A stretch of 64,000 nt of DNA from Escherichia phage vB_EcoP_G7C, in sequence record NC_015933.1, one strand, 5' to 3'. The notes under the pieces are model-generated. The model did no database searches. It was given only the letters and a program-made list of their open reading frames with translations, and had not been told where the DNA came from. A program made the translations under genes and the position numbers. Shown here in pieces: positions 24,675 to 27,305 of the stretch. Each line of letters opens with the position of its first letter. The first letter of the stretch is position 1.

Positions 24675-25172
24675 ATGAGCAAGCCATTAGGATACTGGAA
24701 TAAACCTGCCCATGAACTCGCTGTAGTACATTCTCCCGATGATGCCAATGCAAAGGATGGATACATCAGTATTAAACGTCATGGGGTGAGGGTATTTCTG
24801 CACAACTGGATTTGGGAATACTATAATGGACCAATCCCGGATGGGTATGAAGTTGACCACATCAATGGAATCCCAACTGATTGTCGACTTATTAATATGA
24901 GACTGGTGTCCCATATGATTAACTGTCGCAATCGTCGCAAAAGAATTGACAATACATCCGGCGCTACCGGTGTGTATAGACAATGGAAGAAGACTAATGA
25001 ATATTGGACTGCTGCTTGGAATGACCCGCATACAGGTAAGCTACGAACTAAAAGCTTCAACATTGGTGTTCTTGGGGATAGCGAAGCCAAAGATGCTGCT
25101 ATAGCATACCGGGCTACTATAGAAGCAGACCTGGTAAAGAATCACAACTACACCTTACGCCATGGAAGATAA
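24675..25172 (+). CDS. HNH homing endonuclease with AP2 domain
   Basis: HNH-type VDHINGIPTDCRLINMRLVSHMINCRN; AP2-like GATGVYRQWKKTNEYWTAAWNDPHTGKLRTKSF. Confidence 0.8.
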   Translation: MSKPLGYWNKPAHELAVVHSPDDANAKDGYISIKRHGVRVFLHNWIWEYYNGPIPDGYEVDHINGIPTDCRLINMRLVSHMINCRNRRKRIDNTSGATGVYRQWKKTNEYWTAAWNDPHTGKLRTKSFNIGVLGDSEAKDAAIAYRATIEADLVKNHNYTLRHGR

Positions 25173-25207
25173 ACTCTCCCCAGTCCATTGGTTCAACCGA
25201 GGCTGAT

Positions 25208-25378
25208 ATGAACAAATTTACTATTCACTGGCTCAATGGAAAGGTTAGTTCTTTCATGGGTGGAGAACCTGCTGAAGGAAACAAAGCATTCCACATTGAT
25301 TCAGAAGGCTGCAAAATCTTAATACCTTATGCTTGGTATAAAGGTGGTGAAGTTGAAGCATTGAAAAAGAGTAGTTAA
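25208..25378 (+). CDS. Small hypothetical protein (56 aa)
   Basis: ATG with GAGG RBS; below the ORF-track size cut-off. Confidence 0.35.
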   Translation: MNKFTIHWLNGKVSSFMGGEPAEGNKAFHIDSEGCKILIPYAWYKGGEVEALKKSS

Positions 25379-26629
25379 TATCGTGAAGGGTTCTGTTAGA
25401 ATCCTTTGAGATAGGAACTCCTATCATAACCTTTCTTAACTTAATCTTTGCCGTATGGCACTGACGCTAGGGGTGGCCCCCCATCCGTCAGACAGACTAT
25501 TTTAAGAACCGGTTATCTCAGAAAATGTAAAGCAACATTCGGGTTAATCAATGGCCTCTCCTATAGGGGCCATTTCTGAATCTTAGGCTATATCCCAAAG
25601 GTTAGTATCTTTGGGATAAGGCTTCAGATCCCTTATCAAACTAACGCTCATGTTGAGCACAACATTAACCAATAATGTCGGATAGTTCGTTACGCTATTC
25701 ATCCAGCATCGAGTTGTTAGGTCTTACATGCAACATAGGGTAATGGGAGGATTCGTCCCCTCCCTCCTATTATGAACCAATTCGTGAGAACTCTTATCTT
25801 GGCTACCGGGAAAGGAGTGAAAAATGTTCGTAAACTACTCCCCAATTAGGTTCAACTCCTAAGCCAGGGTAAGTGTTCTCACTAATTGGAAAAATTAAGA
25901 CGGGTCTGGTGAAGTAGATGGGGTTCGATTCCCTCCGGTGGAGTAATCCACTAGCGTGCTTGGTGCACGAATAAGACTTAATACTGGTGGTTCGATTCCA
26001 TCCCCCGTTACCCGAAGTCGCCAGGTACTTATGGCAAACGGGTAGTAACGAACTAGTCATTCGTCAAACGCCCACCCAATTATGAGTCAGCAAGAACGCC
26101 TTCACTTAAACTTAAACAAAAAAGCTTAACGCAATAATTATGTAGGGGTATGTAAGGATTGCGAAGAAGGAGCCAGTTAGAGCCTGGCATGGCTCACCTA
26201 TTGCATTACCAAGCCACTAGGCAAGTACTGTTAAGCAGTATACACGTTATGAGCCTCCTGGGGGCTAGTGGAAGTTGCCAACATCAACGAGATGTCCTGT
26301 GTTGTCTCTGAGGCTGCTTGGTAGTGCATTCTAATCAGCAGTAACATAGTCCTGATTGCATAGCACTCTAAAGACAACACTGGTAAGACAGTCCAGTGGC
26401 TGCTAATGTATTGTTATTCCCCTCGACGGGAATTTCGCTAGTGAAGGTAACACTTAAAAATCCAAACCCACGTCTTACTACTATCGGGCTATCAACCCAC
26501 GGTCGCTTAACCCTGTAGTGATAGTAGTTTGACGGCCTGCCTCGTTGACTGCGTTAAAGTCACTAAGTCCCTCGGAGCCGTCACTCTGGGGGACTTTTTT
26601 ATTTGAGAACTACTTATTGGACGATTCAT
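25379..26629 (+). ncRNA. ORF-poor structured RNA island with tRNA-like T-arm motifs; candidate ncRNA or degenerate tRNA cluster
   Basis: No ORF of 60 aa or more on the plus strand; two exact GGTTCGATTCC T-arm 11-mers (25922-25932, 25989-25999) each with a pairing T-stem; several perfect 6-10 bp stem-loops; ends at a terminator. Confidence 0.4.
26567..26600 (+). terminator. Rho-independent terminator closing the RNA island
   Basis: GC-rich stem GTCCC…GGGGAC followed by T6. Confidence 0.55.
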
Positions 26630-26771
26630 ATGATTGACCTAATCTTAACCCCGTATGCCTATGAGGTAACGGATAACCGTGGACGTAAGTCTTTGGTATT
26701 TGCAGGTAGCGTAGCCTATAACAACGCAGTCATGTTTAAATACAAACTTAAACCACTCTATGAGGCTAATA

Positions 26772-26909
26772 ATGGAATTTGATGATTTAGATTTTGAAGC
26801 TATCGAAAGGGCGAACCAGGAGAAACTGGAACAGGCTAATCGTGAAGCTGAAGAGTTAGAAAACGCTAAAGGCAACAACGATTGCACGAGTGGTGGTTGC
26901 ACCATTTAG
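26772..26909 (+). CDS. Small acidic protein (45 aa)
   Basis: ATG with GAGG RBS; overlaps a weaker 50-aa ORF at 26630-26782. Confidence 0.3.
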   Translation: MEFDDLDFEAIERANQEKLEQANREAEELENAKGNNDCTSGGCTI

Positions 26910-26990
26910 CAAACAGGTATATGGTAGTTTTTACCGAAAGGTACTGAACTACCCGACATGTGGTAAGGCTCGAGAAGCCAAAACAAAATA

Positions 26991-27013
26991 AGCCCTCCTA
27001 GTGAGGGCTTTTC
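26991..27013 (+). terminator. Terminator-like hairpin
   Basis: Stem AGCCCTC/GAGGGCT followed by TTTT. Confidence 0.5.
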
Positions 27014-27033
27014 CATATCTGTAGGAAACTATT

Positions 27034-27264
27034 ATGACGCAAGTATCTATTACCTCTGTTGTTCGTGAAGCCATTCTCAACAATACTGTTCGTACATATT
27101 CGTTCGATGAAATCGCAGAGAAGCTAGGAGTAACCCGTTACGTGGCTAAGAAACTCTACTTCACTTTCCTGTGGTTCCCTACGGAAGAAACATTACGGAA
27201 GATTAAAGAAACTGGTAAATTTCCAAGTGAAGGACGCAAGCCTAAAATGTGGAAAACACCCTAG
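27034..27264 (+). CDS. Small HTH DNA-binding protein (76 aa)
   Basis: AGGAAA RBS 7 nt upstream; HTH-like YSFDEIAEKLGVTRYVAKKLY; bracketed by terminators. Confidence 0.5.
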   Translation: MTQVSITSVVREAILNNTVRTYSFDEIAEKLGVTRYVAKKLYFTFLWFPTEETLRKIKETGKFPSEGRKPKMWKTP

Positions 27265-27276
27265 CTTCTAAAAGCA

Positions 27277-27298
27277 AAGCCCCTCTTTTGAGGGGCTT
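27277..27298. terminator. Bidirectional rho-independent terminator between convergent units
   Basis: Perfect 9-bp stem AAGCCCCTC/GAGGGGCTT with TTTT loop, A-run upstream and T-run downstream. Confidence 0.75.
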
Positions 27299-27305
27299 TC
27301 TCATT

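What the first reader, a model, noticed from the sequence alone, without database searches (positions are those of the whole stretch)
25379..26629. 1.25-kb ORF-poor island packed with stem-loops and two canonical tRNA T-arm motifs
In a genome otherwise about 95% coding, this stretch has no credible long ORF. It carries two exact copies of GGTTCGATTCC, the tRNA T-stem/T-loop signature, 67 nt apart (25922-25932 and 25989-25999), each with a complementary T-stem (TGGGG/CCCTC and GGTGG/CCATC). It also has perfect hairpins with 6-10 bp stems (25465-25492, 25549-25575, 25590-25617) that are not followed by T-runs. It sits at the junction of the convergent early and late transcription units and ends at a terminator at about 26567-26600. 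I could not fold a canonical cloverleaf around either T-arm by hand, so these may be atypical or degenerate tRNAs, tRNA-like decoys, or a long structured ncRNA.
Basis: seen in the sequence. Interest (0 to 1): 0.75.

Follow-up and report, generated by a model that had tools for sequence, protein, structure and literature searches.

The report
Phage island of tRNA-like small RNAs
The two tRNA "T-arm" motifs belong to a single ~112-nt tRNA-mimicking RNA, next to a second tRNA-like RNA, in a gene-poor island of an N4-type coliphage; both RNAs are conserved by compensatory mutations across unrelated phage families yet are missed by tRNA finders and absent from Rfam, and what they do is unknown.

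Summary
GGTTCGATTCC occurs exactly twice (25922-32, 25989-99; 0.01 expected by chance), the hairpins and the terminator are real, and 25173-27305 is the window's largest ORF-free gap.

The window is a Gamaleyavirus (G7C/PhAPEC-type N4-like phage). The island is that genus's tRNA-gene region, but here ARAGORN finds no tRNA. The tRNA-Ile of relatives has been swapped, cassette-precisely, for an unrelated 125-nt block.

The two T-arms are not two degenerate tRNAs. Both belong to one RNA, element B (25899-26013). It has an acceptor-like stem with a T-arm beside it, enclosing a second T-arm, a closed acceptor-like hairpin and a D-arm-like hairpin. Across 25 copies, 97.7% of cells pair and 22 of 26 pairs show compensatory changes. 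The copies come from N4-like podoviruses, T4-like myoviruses and metagenomes, always in tRNA clusters.

Element A (25777-25889) is a ~25-bp covarying stem with an almost invariant tRNA-like head. N4, Klebsiella and Salmonella N4-like phages, and Yersinia T4-like phages share it.

Neither is in Rfam or in E. coli genomes. The closest analogues are T4 RNAC and bacterial YrlA. Function is inferred only; I favour processed tRNA mimics acting as decoys. This is a new variant of a known kind.

The parts
25899..26013 (+). Element B: a tRNA-like RNA of about 112 nt that contains both GGTTCGATTCC motifs. Parts: P1 acceptor-like stem 25899-25904 / 26004-26009; stemless D-like motif C-TGGT-GAA-GTA-GA 25906-25918; T-arm 1 25919-25935; P4, a closed acceptor-like hairpin with GUAA loop, 25937-25952; P5, a D-arm-like hairpin with UUGGU loop, 25955-25969; linker with GACTTAATA 25970-25985; T-arm 2 25986-26002; tail A-CCC 26010-26013.
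   Evidence: RNAalifold on a plain MAFFT alignment recovers T1, P4, P5 and T2, with 17 of 21 pairs compensatory. On the CM alignment of 25 copies, 97.7% of cells pair, 22 of 26 pairs show double changes, 0 of 500 shuffles reach this, and slid controls give 42-60%. Members score 76-146 bits against 35 bits or less for ordinary tRNAs in about 1.4 Mb of tRNA-rich phage DNA. Alignment printed; coordinates.
25777..25889 (+). Element A: long-stem tRNA-like RNA. Parts: 27-position basal plus acceptor-like helix 25777-25803 / 25863-25889; U-A plus a 9-nt connector in place of a D-arm; hairpin GGAGTG...TACTCC 25814-25841 with a 16-nt loop; T-arm TTAGG-TTCAACT-CCTAA 25846-25862.
   Evidence: Homologues occur in N4, the Klebsiella phages Pylas and KpCHEMY26, Salmonella FSL SP-058/076, the Yersinia T4-like phages TG1 and phiR1-RT, and Shigella Moonfish. 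On a nearly gapless MAFFT alignment, 90% of cells pair, 12 pairs show double changes, and slid controls give 38-49%. CM R2 scores members at 101-142 bits.
25380..25775 (+). Block M1: conserved structured noncoding module that starts right after the stop codon of the 56-aa ORF. Hairpins at 25386-25406, 25461-25491, 25550-25574, 25591-25618, 25615-25637, and a G+C-rich 3' hairpin at 25745-25764.
   Evidence: 97-100% identical across 13 Gamaleyavirus islands in 25375-25475 and 25525-25650, which is higher than the flanking ORFs. Pieces are about 82% identical to intergenic DNA of more than 100 phiEco32-like podoviruses, with compensatory changes in two hairpins seen by eye.
26012..26202 (+). Block C: noncoding block found only in Gamaleyaviruses, 96-100% conserved. 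Its structure is not established.
   Evidence: Single-sequence fold gives z = -1.8 only.
26203..26327 (+). Block D: 125-nt segment found only in this phage, closed by a 12-bp stem (26203-26214 / 26316-26327). It occupies exactly the slot where relatives carry tRNA-Ile(AAT).
   Evidence: Junction comparison with F22 and Mimir124. No homologue among the phage records except a weak 60-nt match in Erwinia N4-like phages. Fold z = -0.4.
26337..26404 (+). Element E1: 68-nt three-way-junction fold. A closing stem AGCAG/CUGCU encloses two hairpins.
   Evidence: Shared with N4 (77%) and with Klebsiella N4-like phages (about 91%). The RNAalifold consensus has compensatory changes, for example CACTGG/CCAGTG against TATTGG/CCAATA.
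26565..26604 (+). Intrinsic-terminator-like hairpin (13 pairs) followed by a T-run. It closes the island on the + strand.
   Evidence: Annotated as a terminator at the homologous place in PhAPEC5 and PhAPEC7.
24675..25172 (+). Context: HNH_3 + AP2 homing-endonuclease ORF, inserted relative to related phages just upstream of the island.
   Evidence: Pfam HNH_3 E = 3e-17 and AP2 E = 2e-6. Absent from F22, PhAPEC5, UE-S5a and Mimir124 at this position.

Best explanation
**What it is (shown).** The island is the tRNA-gene region of a Gamaleyavirus. In this phage it has lost every canonical tRNA gene but keeps a chain of small structured-RNA modules on the + strand.

The two GGTTCGATTCC motifs are the two T-arms of one RNA, element B. 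It is built like two nested tRNA 'top halves':
- **Open module:** a 6-bp acceptor-like stem (P1). Its 3' strand follows T-arm 2 after one always-unpaired C. Its 5' strand is followed by a conserved stemless D-like motif (UGGU...GUA). It ends in a discriminator-like A plus CC(C).
- **Closed module, enclosed by the open one:** T-arm 1, then one C, then an acceptor-like hairpin closed by a GUAA loop, then two nucleotides, then a D-arm-like hairpin with a UUGGU loop.
- **No anticodon arm.** Only the 3' half of one survives, as the invariant linker GACUUAAUA.

Element A, 9 nt upstream, is a second tRNA-like RNA. It has an almost invariant head (T-arm plus hairpin, no D-arm) on a covarying stem of about 25 bp.

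**How it most likely works (inferred).** The modules are transcribed with the + strand unit that ends at the 26565-26596 terminator. Host tRNA-maturation enzymes then cut them out: RNase P at the 5' side of the acceptor-like stems, 3' trimming and possibly CCA addition, and perhaps RNase III on the long stem of A. They accumulate as stable tRNA mimics, like T4 RNAC. They lack an anticodon arm but keep acceptor, T-arm and D-like loop features. They are also accessory and move horizontally. I therefore think they act by occupying a host or defence factor that recognises the acceptor/T-arm/elbow of tRNA (decoy or sponge), not by decoding.
For: **Identity and context**
- The window is a Gamaleyavirus, and relatives annotate tRNA genes in the homologous stretch.
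- ARAGORN finds no tRNA in the window.
- tRNA-Ile is replaced cassette-precisely by block D.

**Structure of B**
- An unbiased RNAalifold run recovers four helices.
- 22 of 26 pairs show double compensatory changes, 97.7% of cells pair, and both controls fail to reach this.
- P1 has nine different complementary sequence versions. Its position is anchored independently by T-arm 2 and by the X motif.
- Frequent G-U pairs would be C-A mismatches on the other strand, so the fold is specific to the + strand.

**Specificity**
- Ordinary tRNAs and tRNA pairs score 35 bits or less against 76 bits or more for members.

**tRNA-like handling**
- All copies lie in phage tRNA clusters. B starts 3-4 nt after the CCA end of tRNA-Met in PEi20, CkP1 and L148, and about 6 nt after tRNA-Tyr in L154, where its tail is ACCA.
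- T4 tRNAs are likewise made as dimers with spacers under 5 nt, cut by RNase P, and given CCA afterwards (PMC11143913).

**Structure of A:**

**Selection**
- The noncoding blocks are more conserved than the neighbouring ORFs.

**Accessory and mobile**
- Only 26 of the 68 records matching the block B+C query cover at least 80% of it (that is, include B).
- Among Gamaleyaviruses, A occurs only in this phage and in Moonfish.
- Both elements are shared with T4-like phages at 78-83% identity.
- Neither is present in 5,426 E. coli genomes.

**Precedents**
- T4 RNAC and RNAD are stable RNAs from the tRNA cluster (PMC3014915; PMC9697503).
- The YrlA tRNA-like domain has the same order of T-arm, closed acceptor stem-loop and D-arm. 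It is modified by TruB and DusA, and the M. smegmatis YrlA is cut by RNase P and receives CCA (PMC4201824).
Against: - There is no expression, processing or modification data for these elements in any phage. Transcription, RNase P or RNase III cleavage, CCA addition and stability are all inferred.
- The acceptor-like stem of B has 6 pairs plus a conserved mismatch, not the 7 pairs that favour RNase P. The YrlA authors give the lack of a 7-bp stem as the likely reason some YrlAs are not cleaved.
- The single-sequence fold energy of B is unremarkable (z = -0.97).
- The CM-derived alignment leans towards the modelled structure, and all high-scoring members were in the training set.
- No partner protein or target is identified, so a decoy role is only one of several possibilities.
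- The sequences are related, so shuffle statistics overstate significance.
Confidence: 0.6

Rival explanations
1. Neutral relics. The T-arms and hairpins are decaying remains of tandem tRNA genes in a tRNA island that is losing its genes, with no present function.
For: - The parts of B clearly derive from tRNAs. The linker GACTTARTA is the 3' anticodon-stem plus variable-loop string of ordinary tRNAs, for example tRNA-Phe in L172.
- T-arm 1 plus the next 7 nt are 22/22 identical to the 3' end of a tRNA in L025.
- The arrangement (T-arm, acceptor 3' strand, acceptor 5' strand, D-arm, T-arm) is what the junction of two tandem tRNAs would leave behind.
- The island gains and loses tRNA genes between relatives.
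Against: - Decay does not produce compensatory double changes in 22 of 26 pairs, nor invariant loops.
- It would not keep the same architecture in N4-like phages, T4-like phages and divergent metagenomic copies.
- It would not leave noncoding blocks more conserved than the adjacent ORFs.
- A tRNA origin is likely. Neutrality is not.
Confidence: 0.05
2. Cis-acting processing 'punctuation'. The tRNA-like folds and long stems exist only as RNase P and RNase III cleavage sites. These separate and stabilise the mRNAs and tRNAs of the polycistronic + strand transcript. The excised pieces have no role of their own.
For: - Tight tRNA-like spacing next to real tRNAs.
- The position between ORF blocks, upstream of a terminator.
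- The 'constant basal stem / variable head' cassettes at the same slot in relatives look like a shared processing stem.
- RNase P is known to cut tRNA-like structures in mRNAs and other RNAs (PMC11143913).
Against: - A cleavage signal would not need two nested tRNA-like modules, or an almost invariant 60-nt head that is conserved between podoviruses and myoviruses.
- The elements are accessory: present in some members of a genus and absent from close relatives with the same flanking genes.
- They are kept in a phage that has no tRNAs left to process.
- This explanation does not exclude a trans-acting role.
Confidence: 0.22
3. Unusual but functional decoding tRNA. For example, the first T-arm (5-bp stem, 7-nt loop UUCGAUU) serves as an anticodon arm reading UCG, with a giant variable region.
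For: - An acceptor-like stem followed by A-CC(C/A).
- A canonical T-arm next to it.
- A 5-bp/7-nt hairpin roughly where an anticodon arm would lie.
- Non-canonical tRNAs do exist (PMC5389517, listed).
Against: - ARAGORN rejects all 25 copies, and the Rfam tRNA model gives no hit even at E <= 10.
- The loop is invariant and matches the T-loop consensus, with U at position 37 where tRNAs carry a purine.
- There is no D-stem, there are about 50 nt between that arm and the T-arm, and position 7/66 is always mismatched.
Confidence: 0.03
4. Small protein-coding genes. The island encodes several short proteins, as annotated in Mimir124 (nine 'hypothetical proteins'), including the 85-aa minus-strand ORF 25803-26060.
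For: PHANOTATE-based annotation of Mimir124. ORFs of 30-85 aa can be drawn on both strands.
Against: - The 85-aa frame is broken by single-base indels in Mimir124 and U1G. It also runs into element A, which most relatives lack.
- Variation follows base-pairing, not codon position.
- Most other records leave the T-arm block unannotated (feature column 'none'), and several annotate only a few short hypothetical ORFs plus tRNAs across the island.
- Pfam gives no hits for the small flanking ORFs.
Confidence: 0.03
5. DNA-level element. The hairpins act in single-stranded DNA, as N4-type virion-RNA-polymerase hairpin promoters, a replication origin, or recombination or homing sites.
For: - From general knowledge, N4 virion RNA polymerase uses DNA hairpin promoters.
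- A homing endonuclease gene sits 200 nt upstream.
- The region is a recombination mosaic.
Against: - G-U pairs are frequent and conserved in the helices (17, 13, 21 and 14 of 25 sequences at four positions). These are C-A mismatches on the other strand and weak in DNA.
- The motifs are RNA T-loops in tRNA clusters.
- From general knowledge, N4 early promoters lie at the genome left end and have 3-nt loops, unlike these.
- Mosaicism explains how the modules spread. It does not explain why their folds are conserved.
Confidence: 0.04

Closest known systems
Bacteriophage T4 RNAC (species 1 RNA) and RNAD (species 2 RNA): small stable RNAs encoded in the T4 tRNA cluster
   Same: - They are encoded inside a lytic coliphage tRNA cluster, directly next to tRNA genes.
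- RNAC folds into a terminal stem with a canonical T-arm (CCGGG-UUCGAAU-CCCGG) placed directly 5' of the 3' strand, plus non-canonical other arms (z = -4.6).
- Function is unknown (PMC3014915; PMC9697503).
- T4-like phages carry elements A or B in the same clusters as RNAC or RNAD homologues. VR5 has B plus rnaD, TG1 has A plus rnaC, and PEi20 has B plus a partial rnaC-like 3' domain.
   Different: - There is no detectable sequence or profile homology. BLAST matches only the T-loop, the B model scores RNAC at 17 bits against 76 bits or more for members, and the A model does not hit it at E <= 0.05.
- RNAC has one T-arm. B has two, plus a closed acceptor-like hairpin.
- RNAD has no T-arm.
YrlA, the bacterial and phage Y RNA with a tRNA-like domain (partner of Rsr/Ro60); Chen et al. 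2014, PMC4201824
   Same: - The inner module of B has the YrlA domain order: T-arm, closed acceptor-like stem-loop, then a D-arm-like hairpin with GG in the loop.
- Element A shares the overall Y-RNA look: a long stem formed by the 5' and 3' ends, carrying a tRNA-like head.
- The authors note that dimeric tRNAs resemble YrlA, which fits the likely origin of B.
   Different: - The GNCGAAN0-1G Ro60-binding motif is absent from the window's element B on inspection (noted).
- No rsr gene is known in E. coli K-12 (general knowledge), and none is listed among the features flanking the island in the related phage records I viewed.
- Rfam gives no Y RNA or YrlA hit even at E <= 10.
- B adds a second, open module (P1 plus T-arm 2) that YrlA lacks.
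tRNA-like domain of tmRNA
   Same: The topology of B's outer module matches: acceptor stem with a free 3' end, a T-arm directly 5' of its 3' strand, a reduced D-region without a stem, and the rest of the molecule inserted where the anticodon arm would be.
   Different: - B has no tag reading frame and no pseudoknots, and is 112 nt rather than about 360 nt.
- ARAGORN finds no tmRNA.
- Rfam tmRNA matches only 13 nt of T-loop, at 7-11 bits against a gathering score of 47.
Canonical phage-encoded tRNAs, such as the tRNA-Ile(AAT) of related Gamaleyaviruses
   Same: Same genomic niche and strand, same T-arm consensus, acceptor-like stem followed by A-CC, and tRNA-like spacing to neighbours.
   Different: No anticodon arm and no D-stem in the outer module, 112 nt long, two T-arms, and rejected by ARAGORN and by the Rfam tRNA model.

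Membership tests
Canonical tRNA (Rfam RF00005; ARAGORN cloverleaf) | T-arm: 5-bp stem, 7-nt loop with the consensus UUCRANY, closing G-C pair | tested here: met
   Three such hairpins at 25846-62, 25919-35 and 25986-26002. The loops are invariant across the family.
Canonical tRNA (Rfam RF00005; ARAGORN cloverleaf) | 7-bp acceptor stem contiguous with the T-stem, then discriminator and CCA | tested here: inconclusive
   B has 6 covarying pairs plus a conserved mismatch at the 7/66-equivalent position. The tail is A-CCC here, ACC in JZBo1 and ACCA in L154. A has 7 pairs, but the helix continues for about 18 more.
Canonical tRNA (Rfam RF00005; ARAGORN cloverleaf) | Anticodon arm (5-bp stem, 7-nt loop with U33 and a purine at 37) and a D-arm with a stem | tested here: not met
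   B keeps only the 3' half of an anticodon stem, and its outer D-region has no stem. A has a 16-18-nt loop and a 9-nt connector in place of a D-arm.
Canonical tRNA (Rfam RF00005; ARAGORN cloverleaf) | Recognition by tRNA detectors | tested here: not met
   ARAGORN finds none in the window and none at any of the copies in the loci I scanned. Rfam gives no tRNA hit at gathering score or at E <= 10.
tmRNA | tRNA-like domain plus a tag-peptide reading frame and pseudoknots; detected by ARAGORN or Rfam RF00023 | tested here: not met
   ARAGORN finds no tmRNA. RF00023 matches 13 nt only, at 7-11 bits against a gathering score of 47.
YrlA / bacterial Y RNA | tRNA-like domain in the order T-arm, closed acceptor-like stem-loop, D-arm | tested here: met
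   Inner module of B: T-arm 1, P4 and P5, all covarying. The order is as described in PMC4201824.
YrlA / bacterial Y RNA | Long terminal stem carrying the Ro60-binding site (GNCGAAN0-1G motif on the 5' strand) | tested here: not met
   The motif is absent from the window's element B on inspection (noted; sequences). Rfam gives no Y RNA or YrlA hit at E <= 10.
YrlA / bacterial Y RNA | Encoded next to an rsr (Ro60/TROVE) gene | not tested
   No TROVE product is listed among the annotated features flanking the island in F22, PhAPEC5, UE-S5a and Mimir124. I did not scan all window ORFs for a TROVE domain.
T4 RNAC (species 1 RNA) family | Small RNA gene inside a phage tRNA cluster, with a terminal stem and a 3' T-arm | tested here: met
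T4 RNAC (species 1 RNA) family | Sequence or profile homology to T4 rnaC | tested here: not met
   BLAST matches only the T-loop. R1 gives 17.4 bits. R2 gives no hit at E <= 0.05.
T4 RNAC (species 1 RNA) family | Accumulates as a stable processed RNA in infected cells | not testable with these tools
   No expression data for this phage or its relatives turned up in the literature searches.
Intrinsic (Rho-independent) terminator | G+C-rich hairpin followed by a T-run | tested here: met
   26565-26596 (13 pairs, 7 G-C) followed by TTTTTATTT.

The most novel reading that the evidence does not exclude
Elements A and B (and, by analogy, T4 RNAC) are a class of phage-encoded tRNA mimics with trans-acting function. 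In this reading, B's 'double-elbow' RNA titrates or misdirects a host factor that recognises the acceptor/T-arm/elbow of tRNA. That factor could be a tRNA-directed immune nuclease or toxin, or a tRNA-maturation or decay enzyme. The RNAs would thereby protect phage translation. They would spread between unrelated lytic phages as exchangeable cassettes, on shared processing stems, within tRNA islands.
Probability: 0.18. Interest if true: 0.85.

Novelty: new variant of a known kind. Interest (0 to 1): 0.66.

Why it matters
- **An old open question becomes testable.** Phage tRNA clusters have been known for 50 years to make 'extra' stable RNAs (T4 species 1 and 2) whose function is still unknown. 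This island shows such RNAs are not a T4 oddity. At least two further families, both covariation-supported, circulate among N4-like, T4-like and other coliphages. They are invisible to tRNA finders and absent from Rfam.
- **A natural experiment.** This phage keeps them while having lost all canonical tRNAs, which separates their role from codon supply.
- **A distinctive architecture.** Element B is a YrlA-type closed tRNA-like module nested inside an open acceptor/T-arm module. That gives concrete hypotheses about which tRNA-binding machinery it engages.
- **Experimentally tractable.** The work can be done in E. coli phages, including N4 itself for element A.
- **Practical consequences.** Genome annotations of these therapeutic-candidate phages currently fill the region with spurious small ORFs or 'tRNA-Undet' calls.

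Tried and rejected
1. **Hand-folding each T-arm into its own cloverleaf.** No 5' acceptor partner exists for T-arm 1 upstream. Its 3' neighbour pairs downstream instead (P4).
2. **Single-sequence thermodynamics.** Uninformative for B (z = -0.97), C (z = -1.8) and D (z = -0.4). The signal is comparative, not energetic.
3. **Direct homology to T4 rnaC or rnaD.** Rejected.
4. **Mutual exclusivity of B and rnaC in T4-like phages.** Rejected, because PEi20 has both.
5. **The generic pattern GGTTCGATTCCNTCCGG in IMG/VR.** It mostly returned ordinary tRNAs. The result was useful only as a negative set for the covariance model.
6. **The paper on 10,006 candidate viral structured RNAs.** Its 'rnaC' text hits are the program RNAcode, and it says nothing specific to these elements.
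7. **A shared upstream ORF between this phage and phiEco32-like phages for block M1.** No protein similarity.
8. **Host origin.** No match to A or B in 5,426 E. coli genomes.
9. **Literature on transcription of this region in N4-like phages.** Nothing found.
10. **Block D.** No homologues, so no comparative test was possible.
Full report
**1. The observation.**

- GGTTCGATTCC occurs at 25922-25932 and 25989-25999 on the + strand and nowhere else in the 64-kb window. Dinucleotide-preserving shuffles expect 0.01 copies.
- Both copies are flanked by complementary T-stems.
- A stricter scan for T-arm-like hairpins finds a third one at 25846-25862. All three lie within 160 nt on the + strand, and there are no others in the island.
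- The hairpins at about 25461-25491, 25550-25574 and 25591-25618 are real. So is the terminator at 26565-26596.
- 25173-27305 is the longest stretch of the window with no ORF of 100 aa or more, three times the next longest.
- One detail is off. The convergence point of the two transcription units is the bidirectional terminator at 27276-27299, next to the 3,754-aa virion RNA polymerase gene. That is about 700 nt beyond the island.

**2. What the region is.**

The window is a Gamaleyavirus, a G7C/PhAPEC5-type N4-like coliphage. In N4 and its relatives this stretch, between the gp46/gp47 homologues and gp48, is where the tRNA genes sit.
- ARAGORN finds a tRNA-Ile(AAT) in F22, PhAPEC5, UE-S5a and Mimir124, but no tRNA at all in the window.
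- Rfam finds nothing at gathering thresholds in the whole window. With lax thresholds it finds nothing in the island beyond a 13-nt match to the tmRNA T-loop.
- Block-by-block comparison shows a mosaic:
  - M1, 25380-25775
  - A, 25777-25889
  - B, 25899-26013
  - C, 26012-26202
  - D, 26203-26327
  - E and the terminator, 26331-26604
- Block D occupies exactly the slot of tRNA-Ile in relatives. The junctions are shared on both sides.
- An HNH_3+AP2 homing endonuclease gene (24675-25172) is inserted just upstream relative to all relatives examined.

**3. Element B: both T-arm motifs belong to one RNA.**

*Distribution.*
- The block carrying the two motifs is 95-98% identical in about 26 Gamaleyaviruses.
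- It is also about 80% identical to unannotated DNA in T4-like myoviruses: Dhakavirus VR5/VR25, Kanagawavirus PEi20, Karamvirus CkP1.
- It is 75% identical in the Klebsiella N4-like phage JZBo1.
- In those phages it lies inside tRNA clusters. For example, in VR5 it sits between tRNA-Met and tRNA-Arg. In PEi20, CkP1 and a metagenomic T4-like contig it starts 3-4 nt after the CCA end of tRNA-Met.
- One metagenome scan, using the linker plus second T-arm as the pattern, added three much more divergent versions (L154/L164, L162/L163, L165).

*Structure.*
- RNAalifold on a plain MAFFT alignment of 20 distinct copies recovered both T-arms and both internal hairpins without guidance. 17 of 21 pairs showed compensatory change.
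- I then built a covariance model with the full hand-derived structure and used it to re-align 25 copies.
- On that alignment 97.7% of cells form standard pairs and 22 of 26 pairs have changes on both sides. No shuffle out of 500 reaches the observed values. Sliding the 3' partners by 1-3 columns drops pairing to 42-60%.
- That alignment is fitted to the model, which is a caveat. However, the terminal stem P1 does not depend on the alignment. Its 3' strand always begins one nucleotide after T-arm 2, and its 5' strand always ends one nucleotide before a conserved single-stranded motif.
- P1 exists in nine different complementary versions: GACGGG/CCCGTT, GGTGGG/CCCACT, ATGGCG/CGCTAT, ACAGCG/CGCTGT, ACGGCG/CGCTGT, GGCAAG/CTTGCC, TATAGT/GCTATA, GAAGGT/ACCTTC and CTAGGT/ACCTAG.
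- G-U pairs are frequent at several positions, so the fold is specific to the + strand transcript.

*Specificity.*
- The model separates the family cleanly from ordinary tRNAs. Members score 76-146 bits. The best of hundreds of tRNAs and tRNA pairs in about 1.4 Mb of tRNA-rich phage DNA scores 35 bits.
- All members were in the training alignment, so the gap shows distinctness rather than predictive power.

**4. Anatomy of element B** (window coordinates).

| Part | Coordinates | Sequence / note |
|---|---|---|
| P1, 5' strand | 25899-25904 | GACGGG |
| Unpaired nucleotide | 25905 | |
| X motif | 25906-25918 | C-TGGT-GAA-GTA-GA; family consensus N-TGGT-NNN-GTA-NA |
| T-arm 1 | 25919-25935 | |
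| Unpaired C | 25936 | |
| P4 | 25937-25952 | GGTGGA-GTAA-TCCACT |
| Two nucleotides | 25953-25954 | AG |
| P5 | 25955-25969 | CGTGC-TTGGT-GCACG |
| Linker | 25970-25985 | contains invariant GACTTARTA |
| T-arm 2 | 25986-26002 | |
| Always-unpaired C | 26003 | |
| P1, 3' strand | 26004-26009 | CCCGTT |
| Tail | 26010-26013 | A-CCC |

The position opposite C26003 is U, A or C in all 25 copies and never G.

Read against tRNA, this gives two 'top halves'.
- **Outer, open module.** P1 acts as the acceptor stem, T-arm 2 stacks on it, and X is a stemless D-region. The module has a free 3' end that looks like discriminator plus CC. The tail is ACCA in L154.
- **Inner, closed module.** P4 acts as an acceptor stem closed by a loop. 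T-arm 1 runs into its 5' strand. After two nucleotides (the equivalent of positions 8-9), P5 follows as a D-arm with GG in its loop.
- **Linker.** It is the same string that forms the 3' anticodon stem plus variable loop of ordinary tRNAs, for example tRNA-Phe in L172.
- **Origin.** T-arm 1 plus the next 7 nt are identical to the 3' end of a tRNA in L025. The most economical origin is a tandem tRNA pair that lost its anticodon arms and re-paired its acceptor strands crosswise. That origin is an inference.

**5. Element A.**

*Distribution.*
- The 108 nt between M1 and B are absent from most Gamaleyaviruses. Only Shigella phage Moonfish has them, at 99% identity.
- They are 83-90% identical to unannotated DNA in N4 itself (just 5' of tRNA-Pro), in the Klebsiella phages Pylas and KpCHEMY26, in Salmonella FSL SP-058/076, and in the Yersinia T4-like phages TG1 and phiR1-RT.

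*Structure.*
- On a nearly gapless MAFFT alignment I tested an explicit structure. It has a 27-position terminal helix (25777-25803 / 25863-25889), a hairpin (25814-25841) and a T-arm (25846-25862).
- 90% of cells pair, against 38-49% when slid. 12 pairs show changes on both sides, nearly all of them in the terminal helix.
- The 60-nt head is almost invariant from podoviruses to myoviruses.
- The seven pairs next to the T-arm, followed on the 5' side by U-A, look like an acceptor stem with positions 8-9. A 9-nt connector replaces the D-arm, and the 'anticodon' hairpin has a 16-18-nt loop.
- The covariance model for A scores members at 101-142 bits.

*A shared basal stem with different heads.*
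- The A model's weak hits revealed something further. At the same slot, other Gamaleyaviruses and JZBo1 carry the very basal stem that the Klebsiella and Salmonella versions of A use (CCTATCAATGAGTACA...TGTACTCTTTGATAGTTTTCGTAAG). Their heads are unrelated.
- This looks like a constant stem presenting exchangeable heads. Such a stem might be a shared processing site, perhaps for RNase III. That is conjecture.

**6. The rest of the island.**
- **M1.** It is 97-100% conserved among 13 Gamaleyavirus islands over long stretches, more than the flanking ORFs. Parts of it recur, with compensatory changes seen by eye, in the intergenic DNA of more than 100 phiEco32-like podoviruses.
- **E1 (26337-26404).** A 68-nt three-way junction shared with N4 and Klebsiella N4-like phages, with compensatory changes.
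- **C.** Restricted to Gamaleyaviruses and highly conserved, but without demonstrable structure.
- **D.** Unique to this phage and closed by a 12-bp stem.
- **Protein coding.** It does not explain the conservation. The one sizeable frame, 85 aa on the minus strand, is broken by indels in Mimir124 and U1G and depends on the A/B junction that most relatives lack.

**7. Mechanism.**

*Shown:* these are + strand, covariation-supported, tRNA-derived folds. They lie in tRNA clusters, are spaced like tRNAs, move horizontally, are accessory, occur only in phages (no match in 5,426 E. coli genomes), and are kept in a phage without tRNAs.

*Inferred:*
- They are transcribed with the + strand unit that ends at 26565-26596.
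- They are released by the host tRNA-processing machinery.
- They persist as stable RNAs.

*Precedents:*
- T4 makes dimeric tRNA precursors with spacers under 5 nt. RNase P cuts them, and they receive CCA after transcription (PMC11143913).
- T4 RNAC and RNAD are stable RNAs from the tRNA cluster, and their function is still unknown.
- YrlA RNAs carry the same module order (T-arm, closed acceptor stem-loop, D-arm). They are modified by TruB and DusA, and in one species are cut by RNase P and given CCA (PMC4201824).

*My view.* A and B keep exactly the features that proteins and RNAs use to recognise tRNA shape (acceptor/T-arm stack, T-loop, GG-containing D-like loops). They have lost the anticodon arm. 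I therefore favour a mimic or decoy role over decoding. Their patchy distribution makes me favour a trans-acting role over a pure cleavage signal. These are preferences, not results.

**8. Comparison with known families.**

The elements fail the tests for canonical tRNA (no anticodon arm; rejected by ARAGORN and Rfam). They also fail for tmRNA (no tag, no pseudoknots) and for YrlA as a family (no Ro60-binding motif seen, no Rfam hit, no known Rsr partner). They show no homology to T4 rnaC. They work like, or at least look like, a combination of these:
- an RNAC-like niche;
- a YrlA-like inner module;
- a tmRNA-TLD-like outer topology.

I found no description of these RNAs in the literature searched. 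The nearest traces are 'tRNA-Undet' or 'tRNA-OTHER' calls in some records and the six tRNA genes in KP8, of which only four could be identified (PMC6950046).

**9. Verdict.**

The finding is real and more interesting than a pair of degenerate tRNAs. It exposes at least two unannotated families of tRNA-like RNAs that circulate among unrelated lytic enterobacterial phages. Two more structured modules have partial support (M1, from compensatory changes seen by eye; E1, from an RNAalifold consensus). One family has an unusual nested double-module architecture. Function is unknown and all mechanistic steps remain to be tested. I rate it a new variant of a known kind (phage and bacterial tRNA-like small RNAs), with interest about 0.66.

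Noticed in passing
window 24675-25172: An HNH_3 + AP2-domain homing endonuclease ORF (165 aa) is inserted here relative to F22, PhAPEC5, UE-S5a and Mimir124. It sits between the gp47-like ORF region and the small ORF that precedes the island.
   Followed up: partly
window 25380-25775; L173 1475-1715 (NJ01); L174 1073-1295 (SU7): Block M1 is itself a conserved structured noncoding module. It is shared in pieces (about 82%) with more than 100 phiEco32-like podoviruses, always starting right after the stop codon of a small, non-homologous ORF. The window version carries an extra insert of about 205 nt and a near-duplicate of one hairpin.
   Followed up: partly
L001 1297-1383; L142 1248-1358; L140 795-905; L003 1296-1390; L139 1579-1672: 'Constant stem / variable head' cassettes. 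The same basal stem of about 17 bp used by the Klebsiella and Salmonella versions of element A carries three unrelated heads in other Gamaleyaviruses and JZBo1, at the slot where the window has element A.
   Followed up: partly
L001 1290-1795 (phage F22): Two further unannotated elements with T-arms. One has a perfect 7-bp acceptor stem (TACCAGT/ACTGGTA) followed by A-CCA but is about 125 nt long. The other has a T-arm followed by CTATG, an extra hairpin and a 9-bp basal stem. ARAGORN calls neither.
   Followed up: no
window 26203-26327: Block D replaces the tRNA-Ile(AAT) gene of relatives with cassette precision. It is closed by a 12-bp stem and has no homologue in the phage collection apart from a weak 60-nt match in the Erwinia N4-like phages phiEaP8 and Fifi051.
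   Followed up: partly
window 26337-26404; L007 2510-2580; L139 2413-2480: A 68-nt three-way-junction fold (E1). It lies directly downstream of the tRNA-Ile slot and is conserved, with compensatory changes, in N4, Gamaleyaviruses and the Klebsiella N4-like phages KP8 and JZBo1.
   Followed up: partly
window 26776-26889: The window lacks the gp48 homologue (381-nt CDS) that relatives carry between the terminator and the gp49-like gene. About 357 nt of F22 are replaced by about 114 nt here. Pharokka-style annotation of Mimir124 labels that gene and the next one 'anti-CRISPR protein'.
   Followed up: no
L170 12323-12431; L155 3312-3465; L158 831-1007; L133 8219-8324; L134 8748-8853: Other metagenomic and phage loci give 30-33-bit hits to the element B model, with lengths of about 106-177 nt, and are not called as tRNAs. 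L155, L158 and L170 share a different conserved 5' part (GTCGCTC...AGTGGGTTAA). They may be further families of T-arm-bearing RNAs.
   Followed up: no
L001 2110-2185, L004 2077-2151 and relatives: The tRNA-Ile of Gamaleyaviruses has the anticodon AAT. From general knowledge this anticodon is rare in bacteria. UE-S5a also has an adjacent 'tRNA-???' with a 2-base anticodon loop call (L003 2395-2470).
   Followed up: no
L011 (IMGVR_UViG_2597490320_000001, 72,917 bp): This IMG/VR contig is identical to the window across elements A and B and is probably the source phage. No record in the GenBank phage collection covers block D, so the phage appears to be absent from that collection.
   Followed up: no
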